The translations under genes and the position numbers were made by a program. Below, piece by piece: positions 8,965 to 18,545 of a stretch of DNA of 23,100 bases. The stretch comes from a virus. Lineage: Duplodnaviria > Heunggongvirae > Uroviricota > Caudoviricetes. The first letter of the stretch is position 1; each line of letters opens with the position of its first letter. The notes beneath the pieces were generated by a model, which searched no databases, had not been told where the DNA came from, and saw only the letters and a program-made list of their open reading frames with translations. The DNA lies in the IMG/VR virus record IMGVR_UViG_2513237361_000003, positions 1 to 23,100 of that record, one strand, 5' to 3'.

Positions 8965-10383
8965 ATGCCGATTCAGCAACTTCCGCTCATGAAAGGTGTC
9001 GGCAAAGACTTTCGAAACGCCGACTATATCGACTATCTGCCAGTGAATATGCTGGCTACACCCAAAGAAATACTCAACAGCAGCGGATATCTTCGCTCAT
9101 TCCCGGGCATTGCCAAACGTTCTGATGTGAACGGAGTATCGCGAGGCGTCGAGTACAACATGGCTCAGAATGCTGTTTATCGTGTGTGTGGCGGCAAGCT
9201 CTACAAAGGCGAAAGCGAAGTCGGTGACGTCGCCGGAAGTGGTCGCGTATCAATGGCACATGGTCGGACATCTCAGGCTGTAGGCGTTAATGGTCAACTG
9301 GTCGAGTATCGTTATGATGGCACGGTTAAAACAGTCTCAAACTGGCCTACAGACAGCGGATTCACGCAGTATGAGTTAGGTTCAGTTCGCGACATTACGC
9401 GCTTGCGTGGGCGTTATGCGTGGTCAAAAGACGGCACTGATTCATGGTTCATCACTGATCTTGAAGACGAATCGCATCCTGACCGCTACAGCGCACAATA
9501 TCGCGCAGAATCGCAGCCGGACGGCATCATCGGCATCGGCACATGGCGAGACTTCATCGTCTGCTTTGGTTCATCGACGATTGAATATTTCTCCCTGACT
9601 GGTGCAACCACCGTTGGTGCAGCTTTGTATGTCGCACAGCCATCACTGATGGTGCAAAAAGGCATCGCCGGGACTTACTGCAAAACGCCATTCGCTGATT
9701 CTTATGCGTTCATCAGCAATCCGGCAACAGGTGCTCCGTCTGTTTACATCATCGGATCCGGTCAGGTGTCACCAATCGCCAGCGCGAGCATTGAGAAAAT
9801 TCTCCGCTCCTACACTGCTGATGAACTGGCTGATGGTGTGATGGAGTCTCTGCGATTTGATGCGCATGAGTTGCTGATTATCCACCTTCCGCGCCATGTT
9901 CTCGTGTACGACGCATCTTCAAGCGCCAATGGTCCGCAATGGTGTGTACTGAAAACAGGCCTGTATGACGATGTGTACCGCGCTATCGACTTCATTTACG
10001 AAGGCAATCAGATAACGTGCGGCGATAAGCTGGAGTCCGTGACCGGGAAATTGCAGTTCGATATCAGCAGCCAGTACGACAAGCAACAGGAACACCTGCT
10101 GTTTACTCCGTTGTTCAAAGCGGATAACGCCAGAGTGTTCGACCTTGAGGTTGAATCGTCAACTGGCGTTGCGCAGTACGCCGACCGCCTGTTCCTCTCT
10201 GCAACCACTGACGGCATAAATTACGGACGTGAGCAGATGATTGAACAGAATGAACCGTTCGTTTACGACAAACGTGTTTTGTGGAAGCGAGTCGGGCGCA
10301 TCAGGAAAAATGTCGGCTTCAAATTGCGCGTTATCACGAAGTCACCTGTCACTCTGTCTGGCGCTCAGATAAGGATTGAGTAA
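8965..10383 (+). CDS. tail accessory factor, P22 gp10-like
   Basis: 472 aa, the same length as P22 gp10, in the conserved position between the gp4-like and gp26-like genes. Confidence 0.8.
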
Positions 10384-11084
10384 TGGCGGATTCGAATCTA
10401 AATGATCCGGTAATCATCCAGGCTACGCGGCTCGACACATCAGTCCTTCCACGCAATATCTTCTCGCAGTCATATCTGCTGTACGTTATCGCACAGGGTA
10501 CTGATGTTGGTAACGTGGCGAACAAGGCCAACGAAGCAGGGCGGGGCGCTTATGACGCACAAGTCAGGAACGATGAGCAGGATGTGATTCTGGTCGGTCA
10601 CGAAGAAAGAATTCGTCAGCTCCGCATTGAAGTAGATGACCATGAAATCCGTATTACTGCAAATACCAATGCAATCGCGTCGCTGGATGTCAGACTAACC
10701 ACGGCTGAAGGTGAAATAGTCACCTTGCAGGCTGATGTCAGTGCTCTTGATGGTAGAGTGACGGAGGCTGAAGGAAATATTTCTGCATTGCAGGACGATT
10801 ACGTATCGAAAACAGCAACAGCAACACAATCGCTGGCATCCCCCCTCAACGTAACAACATCCTATTCGGTCGGCGGCACCAAGGTTATTGGTGCTCGTCA
10901 GACAGGGTGGACAGCGGCTACAGGTACGGCTCTTCGCGGCTCATTCAACGCTAACCAGACATACACGGTAAGTGCCACATACACACGGTCTGAGGTGTCG
11001 GCTATGGCTACAGGATTGCAGCAGGCGCGGCAGCGTATCAAAGCTCTGGAAGATGCATTACGGACTCATGGGTTGATTGACTGA
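10383..11084 (+). CDS. tail needle (cell-envelope-penetrating plug), P22 gp26 type without a C-terminal knob
   Basis: 233 aa. N-terminus [43 protein letters not shown] is very close to P22 gp26 as recalled. Central heptad coiled coil. C-terminus ends ...[13 protein letters not shown]. Confidence 0.9.
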
Positions 11085-11539
11085 TGATTACATTCAAACC
11101 AACGCGAAACATCGACCTGATAGAAGCAGTAGGAAATCACCCTGACATTATCGCCGGGAGCAACAACGGTGATGGATACGACTACAAACCTGATTGCCGT
11201 TACTTTGAGGTGAACGTGCACGGGCAGTTCGGCGGCATTGTTTACTATCAGGAGATTCAGCCGCTGACATTCGATTGCCACGCCATGTACCTGCCAGAGA
11301 TTCGCGGCTTCAGCAAGGAAATCGGGCTGGCGTTCTGGCGATACATTCTGACTAACACCACCGTTCAGTGCGTCACATCGTTCGCCGCACGCAAATTCCG
11401 CCACGGGCAGATTTACTGCGCAATGATTGGCCTTAAGCGTGTAGGAACCATCAAGAAATACTTCAAAGGCGTGGATGACGTGACGTTTTACAGCGCAACA
11501 CGCGAAGAACTAATCGACTTCCTTAATCACGGGAGATAG
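11084..11539 (+). CDS. gp14-like head/ejection-associated protein
   Basis: 151 aa in the gp14 position between the needle and gp7-like genes. Start overlaps the gp26 stop. Confidence 0.65.
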   Translation: MITFKPTRNIDLIEAVGNHPDIIAGSNNGDGYDYKPDCRYFEVNVHGQFGGIVYYQEIQPLTFDCHAMYLPEIRGFSKEIGLAFWRYILTNTTVQCVTSFAARKFRHGQIYCAMIGLKRVGTIKKYFKGVDDVTFYSATREELIDFLNHGR

Positions 11540-11541
11540 CC

Positions 11542-12234
11542 ATGTTATATGCATTTAAGCTGGGCAGAAAACTGCGCGGCGAGGAACCTTATTGCCCTGA
11601 AAAAGGCGGGAAAGGTGGCAGTTCTGATAAAAGCGCAAAGTATGCAGCAGAAGCTCAGAAGTATGCCGCAGACCTGCAAAATCAGCAGTGGCAGACGATC
11701 ATGAAAAACCTTGCTCCGTTCACGCCGCTTGCGGAGCAGTATGTTAACCAGCTTCAGAATCTTTCCAGTTTAGAAGGACAGGGGAAGGCACTTAACCAGT
11801 ACTACAACTCTCAGCAGTACAAAGATCTTGCTGGTCAGGCTCGTTACCAGAGTCTTGCTGCTGCGGAGGCGACGGGTGGACTTGGTTCGACAGCCACAAG
11901 CAATCAACTGGCTACGATCGCGCCGACTCTCGGTCAGTCTTGGTTATCAAACCAGATGAGCAATTACAACAATCTGGCAAACGTTGGGCTTGGTGCGCTG
12001 CAAGGTCAGGCAAACGCCGGGCAGACGTACGCCAACAACATGAGCAGCATTGCACAGCAAAGCGCAGCTCTTGCCGCTGCTAATGCCAATAAACCATCAA
12101 GTCTTCAGACTGCAATTAGCGGTGGCACGTCTGGTGCGATTGCCGGTGCAGGTCTTGCCAGCCTTTTGGGAACATCAACACCTTGGGGCGCTGGCATTGG
12201 TGCTGGTATCGGATTGCTTGGCTCGTTGTTTTAA
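11542..12234 (+). CDS. ejection (injection) protein, P22 gp7-like
   Basis: 230 aa. N-terminus MLYAFKLGRKLRGEEPYCPEKGGKGG. Gln/Asn/Ala-rich middle and Gly-rich hydrophobic C-terminus. Conserved order 14-7-20-16. Confidence 0.8.
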   Translation: MLYAFKLGRKLRGEEPYCPEKGGKGGSSDKSAKYAAEAQKYAADLQNQQWQTIMKNLAPFTPLAEQYVNQLQNLSSLEGQGKALNQYYNSQQYKDLAGQARYQSLAAAEATGGLGSTATSNQLATIAPTLGQSWLSNQMSNYNNLANVGLGALQGQANAGQTYANNMSSIAQQSAALAAANANKPSSLQTAISGGTSGAIAGAGLASLLGTSTPWGAGIGAGIGLLGSLF

Positions 12235-12243
12235 GGGGTAATC

Positions 12244-13650
12244 ATGGCTACTTGGCAAGGATCAAATGGCGGATTGTTGGCTGGTATCGGCGGCGTCAAC
12301 TCAAACGCTCCGAGCGTAAATGACATCGGCAATACGCTTCAGCTTATCAGGCAGAACAATGATATTGAGCGTTCAGGCGCTAACAATGTTGGGCTGACTG
12401 CTTTGCAAGGCCTTTCAGGTATTGCGGGGGTGTTTCAGCAGGAAAAGCAGGCTCAGCGGCAGAAAGAATTTCAGCAGGCATACGCTAATGCTTATGCGTC
12501 TGGTGATCGCGGTGCTTTGCGTCAGTTGGCCACTCAATATCCAGACCAGATTGAATCCGTTCGTAAAGGCATGGGATTCATTGATGAAGAGCAGCGTAAT
12601 TCTATCGGCACCTTAGCGGCTGGCGCACGCCTTGCGTCATCGTCTCCAGAAGCAATGCAATCATGGCTGCAAAACAACGCCAATGAGCTGGCGCGCGTCG
12701 GTGTTGACCCTAATAACGTTGCTCAGATGTATCAGCAGAACCCTTCAGGATTTGGTGAGTTTGTTGATCACCTTGGGATGGCTGCGCTTGGTCCGATTGA
12801 TTACTTCAATGTTCAGGACAAGATGGCTGGTCGTGAAATTGACCGAGGCAGGCTGGCAGAGACAATCCGCAGCAATCAGGCTGGTGAAGCACTTCAGGCG
12901 AGAGGGCAAAACCTTTCCTATCAGTCAGCAATGACTGGGCACAATATCGCAGCACAACGCTTGGCTCTGGATCAGCAAGAGTTCGGGTTTAAGATGCAGC
13001 AAGCGCAGGAAAAGGCTCAGCAGTTGATTAGCGAAGCACCTAAGCTGTCAGTAAACATGGAAAAAGGCATCGAGACGGCTGTAAACAATGCCACAGCATC
13101 ATCAAACTCAGCCAATTCCATGAGTGCGCTTGCTCAACAGTTCAGAGCAGAAAAACCAACGACCGGTTTGTTCGGTAACGCACAGAACATGTTCGCAAAA
13201 CTTACCGGAAGCGATACGACATTGCGTGATTTGCGCATTCGCCAAAATGCCCTTGTTAACAGTCAGGTTCTTAAATTCCTACCTCCCGGCCCAGCAACGG
13301 ATAAAGACGTTGAGATCGTTCGACAGGGTGCGCCAACTGACATGGATAACCCTGAGACGGTCGCAAGATGGCTTGATGCAATGGCAAACCTTGAGCGACG
13401 AAACGCGCAGTTTAATGAGTTTAAAGCTGAGTGGATGAGCGCGAATGGCAACCCTGGACAATCGCGTAATGGCGGTCAGATATTGGGGTTGGATGTTAAA
13501 AAAGGTGAATCATTGGGGAGTGCCGTTAAGCGGTATATGTCAATGAATACTGACGCAGCGCCAGCACAAGATTCGACACCTTCAGGAGAACCACGGAATC
13601 AGGTTGGATCATATACCTCAAAATCAGGCATTCAATTTACGGTGGAATGA
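12244..13650 (+). CDS. ejection protein, P22 gp20-like
   Basis: 468 aa in the gp20 position. Its stop overlaps the next gene start. Confidence 0.8.
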
Positions 13651-15508: not shown

Positions 15509-15994
15509 CTACCTGATATTACTGCTACTGTTGCATGTTACCGTGTTTCCAAATCCTGAATTGCAGTTTGTATATGTGTCAACGCGTGTTGGGTAAGGTT
15601 GAGTTATAACAGGCTGGCGCGCTTTTTGCTCGATCGCTTGCATTGTGTTTACAGCCTGATAATTCAATAAAGCCTGCTGGAATGCTTGGCTTTGTGCTAT
15701 TTGTTGGGCTTGTTCTTGGCTTTGTAATTGAACATAAAGATTCTGAAGCTCAAGTCTTGCCTGTGCGTCACTTATCTTGCCTTCATCGACACCTTGCCCG
15801 AGCATCTTTGCAGCAAGGACATACAGCTTAGGTGTTGGTGCTGATGCCATGCGTGAGTCGTTCTTCACACTGGCATCAAGGCAATTAGCCATATCGCTAA
15901 GCTTTTGATAGCGTTGTTCGCAACTTGCTTGATAGTCACTTACTTTTGCGCATCCAACCAGCAGAAGCGGGATAATTAACAGTGATTTTTTCAT
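15509..15994 (-). CDS. outer-membrane lipoprotein moron, candidate superinfection-exclusion or lysogenic-conversion protein
   Basis: AAGGAG 9 nt upstream of an ATG giving MKKSLLIIPLLLVGC. Lipobox LVGC with Ala at +2 (outer-membrane sorting rule). Mature part is Gln-rich and helical with several Cys. Convergent with gp16, occupying the slot P22 uses for sieA. Confidence 0.7.
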   Translation of the reverse strand: MKKSLLIIPLLLVGCAKVSDYQASCEQRYQKLSDMANCLDASVKNDSRMASAPTPKLYVLAAKMLGQGVDEGKISDAQARLELQNLYVQLQSQEQAQQIAQSQAFQQALLNYQAVNTMQAIEQKARQPVITQPYPTRVDTYTNCNSGFGNTVTCNSSSNIR

Positions 15995-16064
15995 ATGGTT
16001 AACTCTCCTTAGTTTTTCACAGGATATCATGAAGGCAATGCCATTTTAGCCGGAAACTAGATTT

Positions 16065-16331
16065 CTATGTTTCCTTTTTATTATTGCTATACATGGTCTT
16101 AAGCGTATCAAAGACAATTTTCTTAACCATATCAGATTGTTGTTCTGCCATACGCTCTGCATCGTCAATGTAAACTGATGCAGAGCTTTGTTTAGCCAAT
16201 GATTCTTCAATCGCTGCAATTATCTCTGAGTTCAGCGACCTGTTATTCATCTTCGCACGCTGCTTAATTTTCGCGTGGAGTTCATGCGGAAGTCTCAAGT
16301 GAAACTGCGCCTCGTCGTATTTGCTGTACAT
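16065..16331 (-). CDS. mnt: Mnt-like ribbon-helix-helix repressor (Arc/MetJ family)
   Basis: C-terminal DAERMAEQQSDMVKKIVFDTLKTMY and N-terminal FHLRLPHELHAKIKQRAKMNNRSLNSEI align with P22 Mnt as recalled. Start placed at the Met of MYSKY (88 aa); an upstream ATG at 16364 is possible. Confidence 0.8.
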   Translation of the reverse strand: MYSKYDEAQFHLRLPHELHAKIKQRAKMNNRSLNSEIIAAIEESLAKQSSASVYIDDAERMAEQQSDMVKKIVFDTLKTMYSNNKKET

Positions 16332-16392
16332 CCTTGATGCCTCACCAGTTGGGTGGAATGGCATCGTAACCTACTGGATAAACACTCAATAG

Positions 16393-16405
16393 TACCATTT
16401 TGGTA
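16393..16405. promoter_or_regulatory. candidate operator: inverted repeat TACCA-TTT-TGGTA in the mnt/tailspike divergent region
   Basis: Perfect 5-bp inverted repeat with a 3-bp spacer, in the 99-bp gap between the mnt start and the tailspike start. The P22 Omnt sequence itself is not present. Confidence 0.25.
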
Positions 16406-16463
16406 TGTAATGAATCTCAATCATATCCACGCTGAGTCTATTACTTGCATTTGGAGCCCTTAA

Positions 16464-18509
16464 ATGTCAGAGACGTCACAGTCAATTCTTGTAAATATGC
16501 CAATGAGTCTGTACACAGCATCGCGTTCATTCAAAGCTATTTCAAATGGTAAAATATATGTAGGTATTCCTGACACAGACCCTGTATATCCTGAAAATCA
16601 GGTTCCAGTATATATCGTTAATGAGAGTGGAAATAAGATACAGATTCCACAACCGATTGTTATAAACTCCGGTGGTCATCCTGTTTATAATGGTCAAATA
16701 ATAAATAAAATAATTACAGATGAACAATATAGTCTTGCTGTTTACGACTCTTATGGTTCTCAGGAATATTATTTTGACAATGTGGTAAGGTATGATCCTG
16801 AAGCATTAATGCAATTATTGGCTGGCAAGGAAGGTTATTCGTACATAGGGGAGTTGCAATCAGCTGCTGACTTCTTTGGTCTTGTTAAAAACGACGGCGC
16901 TCGTGTAAAACTACGTAGTTGGTATGCTGGTTGGAGTGTAACTACATATGGAAAGCCAAAAGGTGGTGGTGAGTTTATCTTCCAGGCTAATGTTCCGAAA
17001 GCTAAGCATGACGGCTGCATATACTTCAGCCCGACCGTGCCTTACAGCACAAATCTTTCATCATATGTTACTGGTCAGGGTGAAACTGATCCTACCGGGA
17101 GTGGCGTGTGGGTGAGAGATATTGGTGATGCCACACATATTCATACTGATTGGGCTGGTATTGGAGATGGATCAACATCCACATCTTCATCCGCGCATAG
17201 TGATGCATTACAAAATGTCTTCAATGCAGCGGCAGCCTTAGGTAAACATGTTCAGCTTGGGTATGGGTTTATCCACTTAGAAAAAGCTGTGAGTATGCCA
17301 GCTTTTTTTGACAATACGTCAGCCATGCCGCGGATTGAAGGATACGGCATAAACAGCAGTTACTTTATATGCACCCCGTTGGGTACTGATACATATAACA
17401 TCACGTGCATGTTGGATAGTTTTACCCAAACTTGGGGTATGAAAGACTTCCAGATTCGAGAGAAAGGCCTTACCAAAACTGGCTATTTAATGAAGTTGGG
17501 CCGCCTGACAGGGGCAGTAATTGAGCGTGTCAAATGGGCGGGGGGATACCAACAACTTCTTGCGCAAAGCGTACTGTCATGCACATGGATTGAGCCATGC
17601 TGGTTTAGTGGCTATCGTGGGGCGAAGTTTGAGGCAGGGGGAACGGTTGGTTCTGGTTATGCCAACCCTAACGCTAACAGATTCATTCGCCCACAGATTC
17701 TTACTATGGAAAACCAGGGTTTATGGATAGTTAACGCTACACAATTCCAAATTGATGGCGGTAGCATTGAAGGGTGTGGTTCTCCGGGGGACACTACATT
17801 CCGTGGGTTCTACGTGCAGGGTGGAGGTTCTGACGGCACCGTCGGGTTAGTAGTAGATGGGTTGTATGTGGAAACTGTTAGTGGATACCCGTTCTACATA
17901 ACCCATAGCAACAACCGCTCTATCAAGCATGTTATTTCAAATAGTAACTTCAACAATAACGATACGCAGTATCCTGTTAGCCAAGTAATAGTTCTTGGTG
18001 GTAATTATAGTTACCCGTCAGGGGTAACTATGACTCTGGAGATGCGTGGTAATACCTGCCTTGGGGTTGGCTATACGGCAAGCGCATCGAGGCCAGATGT
18101 TAGTATAAGTGGATATTCCGCCAATGAGCAGGCTATTTTTATCGATTATGATAACTTATGGATCCCATCACAATCACCGGTTGTGGATGCTACTGTTAAA
18201 TGGAAAAGCTCTCCTGACTTCGCTTTTGGTGTGAGCGTTGTTGGTGCGACTGGAGCAATGGGAAACAGGAGAAATATACTCAGTGTTACAAGGGGAGCGA
18301 CTGGGGTTTATACAGTAAATGCAAATCATGATATAGCAAACGTGGCTGTAGAAATAACTACTGTAGGGGTACCAGGATACGGAATAATAGGTGGTTATCC
18401 TACCGCAAACTCATTCGTTGTAAGGATGTACAATACTGCAGGCGCTCCCACTGACATAGATTTCATAGCATTAGGAAAAGACTATAGAGCAAGATTTAAC
18501 GCTACATAA
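16464..18509 (+). CDS. tailspike protein: P22-type N-terminal head-binding domain plus a distinct receptor-binding domain
   Basis: GGAG 8 nt before the ATG. Residues about 15-110 (SRSFKA..NGKIYVG..DTDPV.P.NQ.PVY..NE.G...) match the conserved head-binding domain of P22, Sf6 and HK620 tailspikes. The remaining ~570 aa are Gly/Asn/Ser/Thr-rich like a beta-helix but not recognisably P22's, and the DNA is more AT-rich. Confidence 0.9.
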   Translation: MSETSQSILVNMPMSLYTASRSFKAISNGKIYVGIPDTDPVYPENQVPVYIVNESGNKIQIPQPIVINSGGHPVYNGQIINKIITDEQYSLAVYDSYGSQEYYFDNVVRYDPEALMQLLAGKEGYSYIGELQSAADFFGLVKNDGARVKLRSWYAGWSVTTYGKPKGGGEFIFQANVPKAKHDGCIYFSPTVPYSTNLSSYVTGQGETDPTGSGVWVRDIGDATHIHTDWAGIGDGSTSTSSSAHSDALQNVFNAAAALGKHVQLGYGFIHLEKAVSMPAFFDNTSAMPRIEGYGINSSYFICTPLGTDTYNITCMLDSFTQTWGMKDFQIREKGLTKTGYLMKLGRLTGAVIERVKWAGGYQQLLAQSVLSCTWIEPCWFSGYRGAKFEAGGTVGSGYANPNANRFIRPQILTMENQGLWIVNATQFQIDGGSIEGCGSPGDTTFRGFYVQGGGSDGTVGLVVDGLYVETVSGYPFYITHSNNRSIKHVISNSNFNNNDTQYPVSQVIVLGGNYSYPSGVTMTLEMRGNTCLGVGYTASASRPDVSISGYSANEQAIFIDYDNLWIPSQSPVVDATVKWKSSPDFAFGVSVVGATGAMGNRRNILSVTRGATGVYTVNANHDIANVAVEITTVGVPGYGIIGGYPTANSFVVRMYNTAGAPTDIDFIALGKDYRARFNAT

Positions 18510-18512
18510 AAT

Positions 18513-18541
18513 CCCCCCCCAGGATAACTGTGGGGGGGGGG
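18513..18541. terminator. bidirectional GC hairpin between the convergent tailspike and gtrC genes
   Basis: C8 tract (18513-18520), loop AGGATAACTGT, G10 tract (18532-18541). Lies between the tailspike stop (18509) and the gtrC stop (18546). A/T-rich flank on the minus-strand side. Confidence 0.7.
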
Positions 18542-18545
18542 ATGT

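What the first reader, a model, noticed from the sequence alone, without database searches (positions are those of the whole stretch)
16464..18509. Mosaic tailspike: conserved head-binding domain joined to a different, AT-rich receptor-binding domain
The first ~110 residues match the head-binding domain shared by P22, Sf6 and HK620 tailspikes. The remainder does not resemble the P22 receptor-binding domain as I recall it and is encoded by noticeably more AT-rich DNA. This is the expected signature of receptor-domain swapping. The polysaccharide specificity is unknown and is probably matched to the host O-antigen that the adjacent gtr operon modifies.
Basis: partly seen in the sequence, partly recalled or inferred. 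Interest (0 to 1): 0.5.

Follow-up and report, generated by a model that had tools for sequence, protein, structure and literature searches.

The report
Patchwork tailspike of a P22-like prophage
This gene encodes the host-recognition spike of a P22-type prophage in Escherichia marmotae, assembled from at least four pieces that are shared with different phages. This is a well-known way for phages to change hosts, so the case is instructive but ordinary.

Summary
The ORF 16464-18509 (681 aa) is real and is the tailspike of a P22-like prophage at the sbcB/dacD site of Escherichia sp. TW09308 (E. marmotae).

- **Head-binding domain:** residues 1-113 match Pfam PF09008. Nothing after residue ~116 resembles the P22, Sf6 or CUS-3 receptor domains.
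- **Composition:** the claim is reversed. The head-binding domain is the AT-rich part (34.5% GC, against 45% for the rest). It is also an outlier, 54-58% identical to P22, Sf6, Sf101 and CUS-3, which are 72-97% identical to each other.
- **Mosaic:** there are at least four segments, not two. Codons 1-330 are 97-99% identical in DNA to an E. coli prophage (LR14), apart from a divergent patch at 231-250. Codons 321-530 are about 96% identical to the lytic T7-like Providencia phage EPr2. Codons 545-681 plus gtrIV are identical to a truncated remnant in Shigella phage SfIV.
- **Fold:** the predicted structure is a right-handed beta-helix with conserved E436 and E470, which suggests a polysaccharide depolymerase.
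- **Likely receptor:** this receptor-domain family co-occurs with a rare O139-like (rhamnose plus HexNAc-uronic acid) O-antigen gene cluster, so that O-antigen is the probable target. The S. flexneri backbone that GtrIV is known to modify is less likely.

This is a new member of a known kind.

The parts
16464..18509 (+). Tailspike gene, 681 codons plus stop
   Evidence: ORF list. Full-length match to PHROG 17420 'tail protein', E=5.7e-273. The identical protein is found on 34 contigs and is named 'phage tailspike protein [Escherichia]' by NCBI.
16464..16802 (+). Head-binding (virion anchor) domain, residues 1-113. It is AT-rich and a divergent subtype.
   Evidence: Pfam PF09008, E=5.6e-43. GC 34.5%, GC3 23%. 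54-58% identical to P22, Sf6, Sf101 and CUS-3. Best of 1.84e9 representatives is 64%.
16803..16826 (+). Linker and first recombination junction (…YDPE|ALMQLLAG…), residues 114-121
   Evidence: Sf101 DNA similarity ends at 16817. EPr2 similarity starts at 16827. The model shows a helix at 112-119.
16824..17213 (+). N-proximal subdomain of the receptor-binding part (residues 121-250). It is conserved even in distant relatives: H182, D183, E207, W216 and R218 are invariant.
   Evidence: Segment identities. Invariant columns. 99% DNA identity to the LR14 prophage up to codon 230, then a divergent patch at codons 231-250 (22 mismatches in 60 nt).
17424..18053 (+). Central beta-helix patch (residues 321-530), about 96% DNA-identical to the tail-fibre gene of lytic Providencia phage EPr2. 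It contains the invariant E436 (17769-17771) and E470 (17871-17873).
   Evidence: 28 mismatches in 630 nt, against 27% and 33% divergence in the flanks. Invariant motifs GGS[IM]EGCG and Y[VF]E. pLDDT >90 with beta-helix strands.
18095..18506 (+). C-terminal domain, last ~137 codons (residues ~545-681, predicted beta-sandwich). It is identical in DNA to the truncated tailspike remnant beside gtrIV in Shigella phage SfIV.
   Evidence: 100% identity from 18095 onward, except 98% in 18395-18544 (codon windows). tblastn gives 98.3% over residues 502-681. The remnant lies between ISEhe3 and gtrIV and is unannotated.
16098..21345 (.). 5.2-kb cassette: the part of the mnt-like gene from 16098, the tailspike, and gtrIV-gtrB-gtrA. 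It is shared between prophages with different backbones.
   Evidence: 98.6% identity to L006 (a prophage at the yfdC/intS site, which in LR14 is the argW site; assembly GCA_000408325.1). Its virion genes are only 92-94% identical. There is an internal breakpoint in gtrB at ~20195-20300.
16065..16364 (-). Mnt/Arc-family repressor gene upstream of the tailspike
   Evidence: Pfam Arc (1.1e-14) plus Repressor_Mnt (1.2e-12).
18546..19859 (-). gtrIV, the type-specific O-antigen glucosyltransferase (32.6% GC)
   Evidence: 436/437 aa identical to SfIV gp25. GC.
19861..20775 (-). gtrB (bactoprenol glucosyltransferase, GT2)
   Evidence: Pfam Glycos_transf_2, 7.8e-31.
20772..21134 (-). gtrA (flippase)
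   Evidence: Pfam GtrA_DPMS_TM, 1e-13.
21677..21689 (+). 13-bp attachment core CGTAATCGTGAAA, the right end of the prophage (attR) at the sbcB/dacD locus
   Evidence: Single exact match, 0 expected by chance. It is the same core as the Sf101 / phage 2851 attP in sbcB (PMC4159516). dacD follows at 21928.

Best explanation
This is the functional tailspike (gene-9 equivalent) of a P22-like (Lederbergvirus-type) prophage integrated at sbcB in Escherichia marmotae TW09308.

**How it most likely works**
- The N-terminal 113 residues dock the presumed trimer onto the tail hub.
- A short helical linker leads to a receptor-binding part with three elements: a conserved N-proximal subdomain (121-250), a right-handed parallel beta-helix (~260-570) and a C-terminal beta-sandwich (~580-673).
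- The beta-helix binds the host O-antigen and most probably cleaves it. The invariant E436 and E470 sit on neighbouring rungs and are the candidate catalytic carboxylates.
- Cleavage lets the virion work its way down to the outer membrane.
- After lysogeny the adjacent gtrA-gtrB-gtrIV operon glucosylates the O-antigen, which is expected to block superinfection.

**How the gene was built**
It was assembled by several homologous-recombination events from at least three gene pools:
- codons 1-330 match an E. coli prophage allele (LR14);
- codons ~321-530 match the tail fibre of a virulent T7-like Providencia phage (EPr2);
- codons ~545-681 form one block with gtrIV and the 3' third of gtrB, and that block is identical to the gtrIV region of Shigella flexneri phage SfIV.

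**Predicted receptor**
The predicted receptor is the O-antigen made by the O139-like gene cluster (typed 'Onovel13' in silico). That cluster is rmlBDAC, three glycosyltransferases, an EpsG-type Wzy, a TviB/TviC-like pair for a HexNAc-uronic acid, and Wzx.

**What is shown and what is inferred**
- Shown: domain identity, breakpoints, cassette sharing, GtrIV identity, and co-occurrence with the O-antigen cluster.
- Inferred: trimer, enzymatic cleavage, catalytic residues, receptor identity, and GtrIV acting on this O-antigen.
For: **Identity and context**
- PF09008 at residues 1-113.
- P22-type virion genes upstream are 93-96% identical to Sf101, CUS-3 and similar phages.
- An mnt-like gene lies upstream; gtr genes and the att core lie downstream.
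- The window equals AEME01000001.1:1-23100, which is Escherichia sp. TW09308. The dacD flank is only ~91% identical to E. coli.

**Fold**
- AlphaFold2 model with pLDDT 82 overall and >90 over ~250-670, showing beta-helix strand periodicity.

**Activity**
- E436 and E470 are invariant in all 33 aligned homologues, including ones with ~15% core identity.
- EPr2 has a single annotated tail-fibre gene, and it carries this domain (82% aa). EPr2 makes haloed plaques and has a narrow, strain-specific host range.

**Mosaic**
- Per-segment amino-acid identities and per-codon DNA identities.

**Receptor**
- LR14 is the only one of 5426 complete E. coli genomes with this tailspike family. It carries a wzy found in just 8 of 5426 genomes, including E24377A 'O139:H28'.
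- The E. marmotae version of that Wzy (82% aa) is carried on a contig of 4,809,826 bp, which is exactly the length of the window's contig.
- GenBank accession runs pair the tailspike and the Wzy in two further genomes: EOV49184/EOV49979 and KAF3716032/KAF3715683.
- A truncated homologue of the receptor domain (P0027, again next to a gtr operon) and a Wzy homologue (P0239) occur in exactly the same three samples, once on the same 333,599-bp contig.
- Erwinia oleae and Yersinia kristensenii each appear in both hit lists.
- TW09308 is typed Onovel13, not O13 (PMC11546641).
Against: - No member of this receptor-domain family has been assayed or solved. The closest structures are only 11-17% identical.
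- Pfam-A and NCBIfam give no hit beyond residue 113.
- I could not inspect model coordinates, so I do not know whether E436 and E470 face the same groove.
- The receptor inference is correlative. Presence of the Wzy in TW09308 rests on a contig-length match and accession series, not on reading the locus.
- GtrIV's documented substrate is the S. flexneri-type backbone. The gtrIV-positive E. coli NCTC9967 is O13/O129/O135, so the gtr operon and the tailspike core may not be matched to the same glycan.
- The O-antigen of EPr2's Providencia host is unknown.
- The head-binding domain model has low confidence (pLDDT 30-78).
Confidence: 0.7

Rival explanations
1. Simple two-part swap. A conserved backbone-type head-binding domain is joined to one imported, AT-rich receptor-binding domain.
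For: There is a junction at codons ~113-121. Sf101 similarity ends at 16817 and EPr2 similarity begins at 16827. A composition step occurs at the same place.
Against: The AT-rich part is the head-binding domain (34.5% against 45.3% GC). That domain is itself foreign to the backbone: 54-58% aa identity, against 72-97% among P22, Sf6, Sf101 and CUS-3. Three further breakpoints lie inside the receptor-binding part. The imported unit runs from 16098 to 21345.
Confidence: 0.04
2. The receptor is the S. flexneri-type backbone (E. coli O13/O129/O135), the glycan that GtrIV is known to glucosylate. On this view the phage is the podovirus counterpart of SfIV.
For: gtrIV is 99.8-99.9% identical to the S. 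flexneri and E. coli copies. The tailspike 3' end and gtrIV are identical in DNA over 2.1 kb in SfIV. Every gtrIV copy in complete E. coli genomes (3 of 5426) keeps this tailspike remnant. The gtrIV-positive NCTC9967 has the O13/O129/O135 cluster.
Against: Only the part of the tailspike from ~18095 (codon ~545) is shared at 100%. The remnant diverges upstream of that point (81% over 17945-18094) and is cut by an IS, so its original beta-helix core is unknown. TW09308 is typed Onovel13, not O13. The strains that carry the full-length gene have the O139-like Wzy.
Confidence: 0.12
3. The beta-helix is not a glycoside hydrolase. It could be a lyase acting at the uronic acid, a deacetylase, or a non-enzymatic adhesin.
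Against: The two invariant residues are glutamates on adjacent rungs, 34 residues apart. From my memory of the literature, this is close to the spacing of the catalytic carboxylates in the P22, Sf6 and HK620 tailspikes. EPr2 plaques have halos, which argues against a pure adhesin.
Confidence: 0.25
4. The uneven similarity reflects uneven selection and mutation along one vertically inherited gene, not recombination.
For: Amino-acid identity in the core stays at 90-96% in many homologues while DNA identity falls to 73-82%. This shows strong purifying selection.
Against: Different partners are nearest in different segments, with sharp steps. LR14 goes from 99% to 81% to 56%. EPr2 goes from 73% to 96% to 67%. 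SfIV goes from 81% to 100%. Synonymous differences step as well: against EPr2, 11 synonymously different codons in 180 core codons, compared with 39 in 90 codons in a flank. Selection on the protein cannot produce that pattern.
Confidence: 0.03

Closest known systems
P22 gp9 / Sf6 gp14 / HK620 / CUS-3 tailspikes (Lederbergvirus)
   Same: N-terminal head-binding domain (PF09008). Same gene position, after the ejection genes and mnt and before the conversion genes and att. Predicted beta-helix receptor domain followed by a C-terminal domain. Same presumed mode of action, as an O-antigen- or capsule-destroying adhesin.
   Different: The head-binding domain is only 54-58% identical and is AT-rich. 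There is no sequence similarity beyond residue ~116. Structural matches are only 10-16% identical.
Tail-fibre/spike protein of Providencia phage vB_PreP_EPr2 (Kayfunavirus, OM256482, EPr2_0055)
   Same: 82% aa identity over residues 114-679. About 96% DNA identity over codons 321-530, which include E436 and E470.
   Different: The N-terminus is a T7-type tail-fibre anchor (PF03906). The flanking parts of the receptor domain are 27-33% divergent in DNA. EPr2 is a virulent phage of a different bacterial family.
Tailspike of the argW prophage of E. coli LR14 (WP_500966519.1)
   Same: 99% DNA identity over codons 1-230 and 97% over codons 251-330. The divergent head-binding domain is the same. The host has the O139-like O-antigen cluster.
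   Different: The core is 81% identical in DNA (92% aa over residues 251-500) and the C-terminal domain is only 35% aa identical. There is no gtr operon; the integrase gene follows directly.
Truncated ORF beside gtrIV in Shigella phage SfIV and in thrW-linked remnants of S. flexneri and E. coli (159-203 aa 'hypothetical protein')
   Same: 100% DNA identity from window position 18095 (codon ~545) to the stop, continuing through gtrIV into gtrB.
   Different: It is cut by ISEhe3 or IS3-family elements and sits in a myovirus or a decayed island. It is not a functional tailspike.
Solved beta-helix depolymerases: CBA120 TSP2, Pantoea WceF, Acinetobacter and Klebsiella tailspikes
   Different: 11-17% identity. 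Substrates and catalytic residues cannot be transferred to this protein.

Membership tests
P22-like (Lederbergvirus) tailspike | N-terminal head-binding domain (Pfam PF09008) | tested here: met
   E=5.6e-43, residues 1-113, 146 bits against a cut-off of 24. It is a divergent subtype.
P22-like (Lederbergvirus) tailspike | Encoded at the end of the virion gene block of a P22-type genome (after the gp7/gp20/gp16 ejection genes and the mnt region, before the conversion genes and att) | tested here: met
   Gene order with precomputed Pfam families. 93-96% DNA identity of the virion genes to Sf101 and CUS-3. att core at 21677.
P22-like (Lederbergvirus) tailspike | Parallel beta-helix receptor-binding domain followed by a C-terminal domain | tested here: met
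P22-like (Lederbergvirus) tailspike | Homotrimer with endoglycosidase (receptor-destroying) activity | not testable with these tools
   Only a monomer was modelled. Activity is inferred from the invariant E436 and E470 and from the haloed plaques of EPr2.
P22 gp9 endorhamnosidase receptor domain / Sf6 endorhamnosidase receptor domain | Sequence homology of the beta-helix domain to P22 or Sf6 | tested here: not met
   PDB sequence hits stop at residue ~116. Sf6 BLASTP gives nothing significant after ~113.
Receptor-domain family with the window's tailspike, the EPr2 tail fibre and PHROG 17420 (Pfam 'Phage_tail_beta' PF27114 in precomputed annotations) | Full-length homology of residues ~114-680 to family members | tested here: met
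   39 homologues with E<=1e-5, 25-83% identity, most covering 97-100% of the query. PHROG 17420 at E=5.7e-273. PF27114 is only a 'weak' precomputed hit and was not reported by the Pfam scan run here.
Pectate_lyase_3 / GH28-like tailspikes (PF12708) | Pfam PF12708 match in the beta-helix | tested here: not met
   No Pfam hit other than PF09008 at E<=1. PF12708 occurs only in distant relatives that share ~23-26% of the query.
Serotype-converting gtr cluster, type IV | gtrA-gtrB plus the type-specific GtrIV | tested here: met
   GtrIV 436/437 aa. GtrA and GtrB Pfam hits.

The most novel reading that the evidence does not exclude
The block formed by the tailspike C-terminal domain, gtrIV and the 3' part of gtrB is a mobile unit. 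It recombines, through homology in the tailspike C-terminus and in gtrB, between otherwise unrelated phages: a P22-like podovirus of E. marmotae and the myovirus SfIV of S. flexneri.

If this is right, the S. flexneri type-IV seroconversion cassette was captured from a podovirus like this one. GtrIV would then act on two different O-antigen backbones, O139-like and S. flexneri-type.

At the same time the specificity-determining beta-helix core was exchanged very recently (about 96% DNA identity) with a virulent T7-like Providencia phage. That would imply the same O-antigen epitope is present in Escherichia and Providencia.
Probability: 0.3. Interest if true: 0.5.

Novelty: new member of a known kind. 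Interest (0 to 1): 0.35.

Why it matters
Exchange of tailspike receptor domains between temperate and virulent phages is already documented for E. coli (for example Pas et al. 2023, PMC10408124, and the Casjens papers cited there). The principle is therefore not new. This case adds four specific points.

1. It defines an uncharacterised receptor-domain family with no solved or assayed member. For this family there is now a concrete, testable receptor prediction: the O139-like / 'Onovel13' O-antigen, the commonest in-silico O-type of E. marmotae.
2. It gives a clear example of recombination inside the beta-helix rather than only at the anchor/receptor-domain linker. That is relevant to anyone engineering chimeric tailspikes.
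3. It explains a widespread 'hypothetical protein' next to gtrIV in S. flexneri serotype 4 and E. coli O13-group genomes as a truncated tailspike. This points to a podoviral origin for that conversion cassette.
4. It shows that the 'conserved' head-binding domain has a strongly divergent, AT-rich allele that sits on an Sf6/CUS-3-type tail hub.

Tried and rejected
- **Receptor domain is AT-rich:** rejected, the direction is reversed.
- **Pfam and NCBIfam on the receptor part:** no hits.
- **Scan of one genome per species with conserved peptides:** only two distant loci, in Erwinia oleae and Paenibacillus. Not informative about distribution.
- **First receptor hypothesis (S. flexneri / O13 backbone, from the gtrIV linkage):**
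  - I confirmed that a gtrIV-positive E. coli is O13/O129/O135.
  - A Wzy(O13) search could not be tied to the carrier genomes.
  - The literature types TW09308 as Onovel13, so I downgraded this hypothesis.
- **Reading TW09308's O-antigen locus directly:** not possible. Look-ups show only a few representative places, and the TW09308 contig was collapsed into 'similar places'. I relied on the contig-length match and accession pairing instead.
- **tRNA, promoter and terminator scans around the gene:** nothing above chance.
- **Literature:**
  - The SfIV genome paper does not mention the tailspike remnant.
  - No paper on an E. coli O139 tailspike was found.
  - The ECTyper paper does not define 'Onovel13'.
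Full report
**1. What is at the coordinates**

The ORF 16464..18509 (+) is intact and encodes 681 aa. Upstream lie P22-type virion genes: terminase, portal, scaffold, coat, gp4/gp10/gp26-type tail genes and three ejection genes. They are 93-96% identical in DNA to phages Sf101, CUS-3, Huey and others.

Next come a 173-aa lipoprotein-like ORF and an Mnt/Arc-family repressor gene, both on the minus strand. Downstream and convergent with the tailspike are gtrC, gtrB and gtrA. The 13-bp core CGTAATCGTGAAA follows at 21677-21689. This is the attachment core of Sf101 and phage 2851 in sbcB (PMC4159516). Then comes dacD.

The window is therefore the right half of a P22-like prophage ending at attR. 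It equals AEME01000001.1:1-23100, and that accession belongs to Escherichia sp. TW09308 (PMC3850674). TW09308 is now classed as E. marmotae (PMC11546641). In agreement, the dacD flank is only ~91% identical to any of 5426 complete E. coli genomes.

**2. Checking the observation**

- Residues 1-113 are a head-binding domain (PF09008, E=5.6e-43).
- PDB sequence matches to the Sf6 and P22 tailspikes cover only residues ~5-116. BLASTP against Sf6 has no real similarity after 'YDPE'.
- The composition statement is wrong in direction. Codons 1-113 have 34.5% GC (GC3 23%) and codons 114-681 have 45.3% (GC3 39%). The window is 47.3% overall. The difference gives p=3e-4, and no equally AT-rich 339-nt stretch exists in the 16.4 kb of virion genes.
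- The head-binding domain is also a sequence outlier. It is 54-58% identical to P22, Sf6, Sf101 and CUS-3, which are 72-97% identical to each other. The Sf101 paper reports 85-90% within that group. Among 1.84 billion representative proteins the best match is 64%.
- Its Sf101 and CUS-3 counterparts are 42-43% GC.

**3. The real mosaic**

Comparison with related sequences shows at least four segments.

| Segment (codons) | Nearest relative and identity | Other comparisons |
|---|---|---|
| 1-230 | E. coli LR14 argW-prophage tailspike, 99.3% DNA (5 mismatches in 690 nt) | - |
| 231-250 | Divergent patch, 22 mismatches in 60 nt against LR14 | - |
| 251-330 | LR14 again, 97% DNA | - |
| ~321-530 | Tail-fibre gene of lytic Providencia phage EPr2 (Kayfunavirus), 95.6% DNA (28 mismatches in 630 nt) | EPr2 flanks are 27% and 33% divergent. 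LR14 is 81% here. |
| ~545-681 (from 18095) | SfIV remnant, 100% DNA | LR14 35% aa and the EPr2-like protein P0001 63% aa over residues 586-681 |

The identity with SfIV continues through gtrIV to about 20194 inside gtrB. This is 2.1 kb at 100% identity except one 150-nt window at 98% and one at 99.3%. The corresponding SfIV region is an unannotated, IS-truncated remnant in a Shigella flexneri myovirus.

Synonymous differences step together with total differences, so this is recombination and not uneven selection.

Sf101 similarity ends at 16817 and EPr2 similarity starts at 16827. It is, however, only one of several junctions.

Relative to the prophage backbone, the imported unit is the whole 5.2-kb stretch 16098-21345: part of mnt, the tailspike and the gtr operon. 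This stretch is 98.6% identical in a second prophage, integrated beside yfdC (the argW site in LR14), whose virion genes are only 92-94% identical.

**4. What the receptor-binding part is**

There are 39 database homologues with 25-83% identity. They carry at least three kinds of N-terminal anchor: P22 head-binding (PF09008), Tail_spike_N (PF18668) and T7 tail fibre (PF03906). Some are longer, unassigned forms.

The AlphaFold2 model has pLDDT 82 overall and >90 over ~250-670. The head-binding domain is poorly modelled. The model shows:
- a linker helix (112-119);
- an N-proximal subdomain (~129-240);
- a capping helix (244-258);
- a beta-helix (~262-570);
- a C-terminal beta-sandwich (~579-673).

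Two glutamates are invariant across all 33 aligned homologues. They are E436 in GGS[IM]EGCG and E470 in Y[VF]E, 34 residues apart, in strands predicted to lie on neighbouring rungs. From my own knowledge, this resembles the spacing of the catalytic carboxylates in the P22, Sf6 and HK620 tailspikes. That comparison is a lead, not a test.

EPr2 has a single annotated tail-fibre gene, and it carries this domain. It gives haloed plaques and lyses only 3 of 14 P. rettgeri strains (PMC9026810). This fits a glycan-specific depolymerase.

**5. Which glycan?**

My first idea came from the gtrIV linkage: the S. flexneri-type backbone.
- GtrC here is GtrIV (436/437 aa).
- gtrIV occurs in only 3 of 5426 complete E. 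coli genomes, always with the tailspike remnant.
- One of them, NCTC9967, has the O13/O129/O135 cluster.

However, only the last ~137 tailspike codons belong to that shared block, and TW09308 is typed Onovel13.

A stronger signal comes from co-occurrence with a different O-antigen cluster.
- LR14 is the only complete E. coli genome with this tailspike family. Its O-antigen cluster is rfbBDAC, GT2, GT, EpsG-type Wzy, tviB, an SDR epimerase, a hypothetical gene, Wzx and GT.
- Its wzy is present in just 8 of 5426 genomes, among them E24377A, labelled O139:H28. [quoted passage not shown]
- The E. marmotae version of this cluster is colinear and 88.5% identical in DNA.
- Its Wzy (82% aa to LR14's) is carried on a contig of 4,809,826 bp, exactly the length of the window's contig.
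- GenBank accession runs pair the tailspike and Wzy in two more genomes.
- Independently, a truncated homologue of the receptor domain (again beside a gtr operon) and a 50%-identical Wzy occur in exactly the same three samples, once on one 333,599-bp contig.
- Erwinia oleae and Yersinia kristensenii also appear in both hit lists.

I therefore predict that the receptor is the O139-like / Onovel13 O-antigen (about 60% confidence). Whether GtrIV modifies that backbone is untested.

**6. Comparison with what is known, and novelty**

This is a bona fide P22-like tailspike by anchor, gene position and fold. It is not a member of the P22, Sf6, HK620 or CUS-3 receptor-domain families.

Horizontal exchange of receptor domains between Lederbergvirus prophages and virulent Kayfunaviruses and others is already described (PMC10408124). 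So is the use of the lysogen's O-type to predict specificity. This is a new member of a known kind.

The less routine points are the breakpoints inside the beta-helix, the divergent AT-rich anchor allele, and the explanation of the gtrIV-adjacent 'hypothetical protein'. That fragment is found on more than 480 contigs of S. flexneri and E. coli and is a tailspike C-terminus. The SfIV genome paper does not mention it.

**7. Verdict**

- Interest is 0.35.

Noticed in passing
window 15509-16030 (-): A 173-aa ORF with a lipoprotein signal (…LLVGC…) and a Gln-rich C-terminal half. It has no Pfam or NCBIfam hit. It sits between the last ejection gene and mnt, a moron slot, and could be a superinfection-exclusion or surface-modifying lipoprotein.
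   Followed up: partly
L001 (SfIV NC_022749) 4979-5540; L012 (E. coli NCTC9967) 8400-8964: The sequence beside gtrIV is a truncated copy of this tailspike's C-terminus, cut by IS elements. It is unannotated in SfIV and annotated as a 159-203 aa 'hypothetical protein' elsewhere. Such fragments occur on more than 480 contigs of S. flexneri and E. coli, against 34 contigs for the full-length gene.
   Followed up: yes
window ~20195-20300 (inside gtrB): A recombination breakpoint lies in gtrB in both the SfIV and the L006 comparisons. Identity is 100% on the gtrIV side and falls to 84-97% toward gtrA. The conserved gtrB therefore seems to serve as the homology arm for swapping the type-specific gtrC.
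   Followed up: partly
L030-L032 (metagenome contig ERZ27284878 k141_11201 and two SRA assemblies): A second, independent 'truncated tailspike next to a gtr operon' arrangement (gtrB with a Glucos_trans_II-type gtrC in all three loci; gtrA is also called in L032). It lies in a decayed island near fliE-fliF in an unidentified enterobacterium. That genome's O-antigen cluster is related to the O139-like one.
   Followed up: partly
L011 (Paenibacillus mesophilus) 6001-6306; window residues 163-263: The N-proximal subdomain of the receptor-binding part (invariant H182, D183, E207, W216, R218) has a 40%-identical match in a Firmicute genome. It also matches several PHROG tail-fibre families on its own. 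It may be a separately mobile domain of unknown role.
   Followed up: no
window 1: The contig AEME01000001.1 starts inside the prophage, in the lysis/terminase region. The left half of the prophage and attL are therefore not in this window. I did not check whether the prophage is complete.
   Followed up: no
window 21384-21632 (-) and 21209-21706: The stretch between gtrA and attR is 92% identical to the Sf101 region that holds its hypothetical gp17. An 82-aa ORF there has no family hit.
   Followed up: no
window 1-12780: The virion genes are 95% identical to a record named 'Klebsiella phage phiKp_30'. That host label is unexpected for an Sf6/CUS-3-type Escherichia and Shigella phage backbone.
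   Followed up: no
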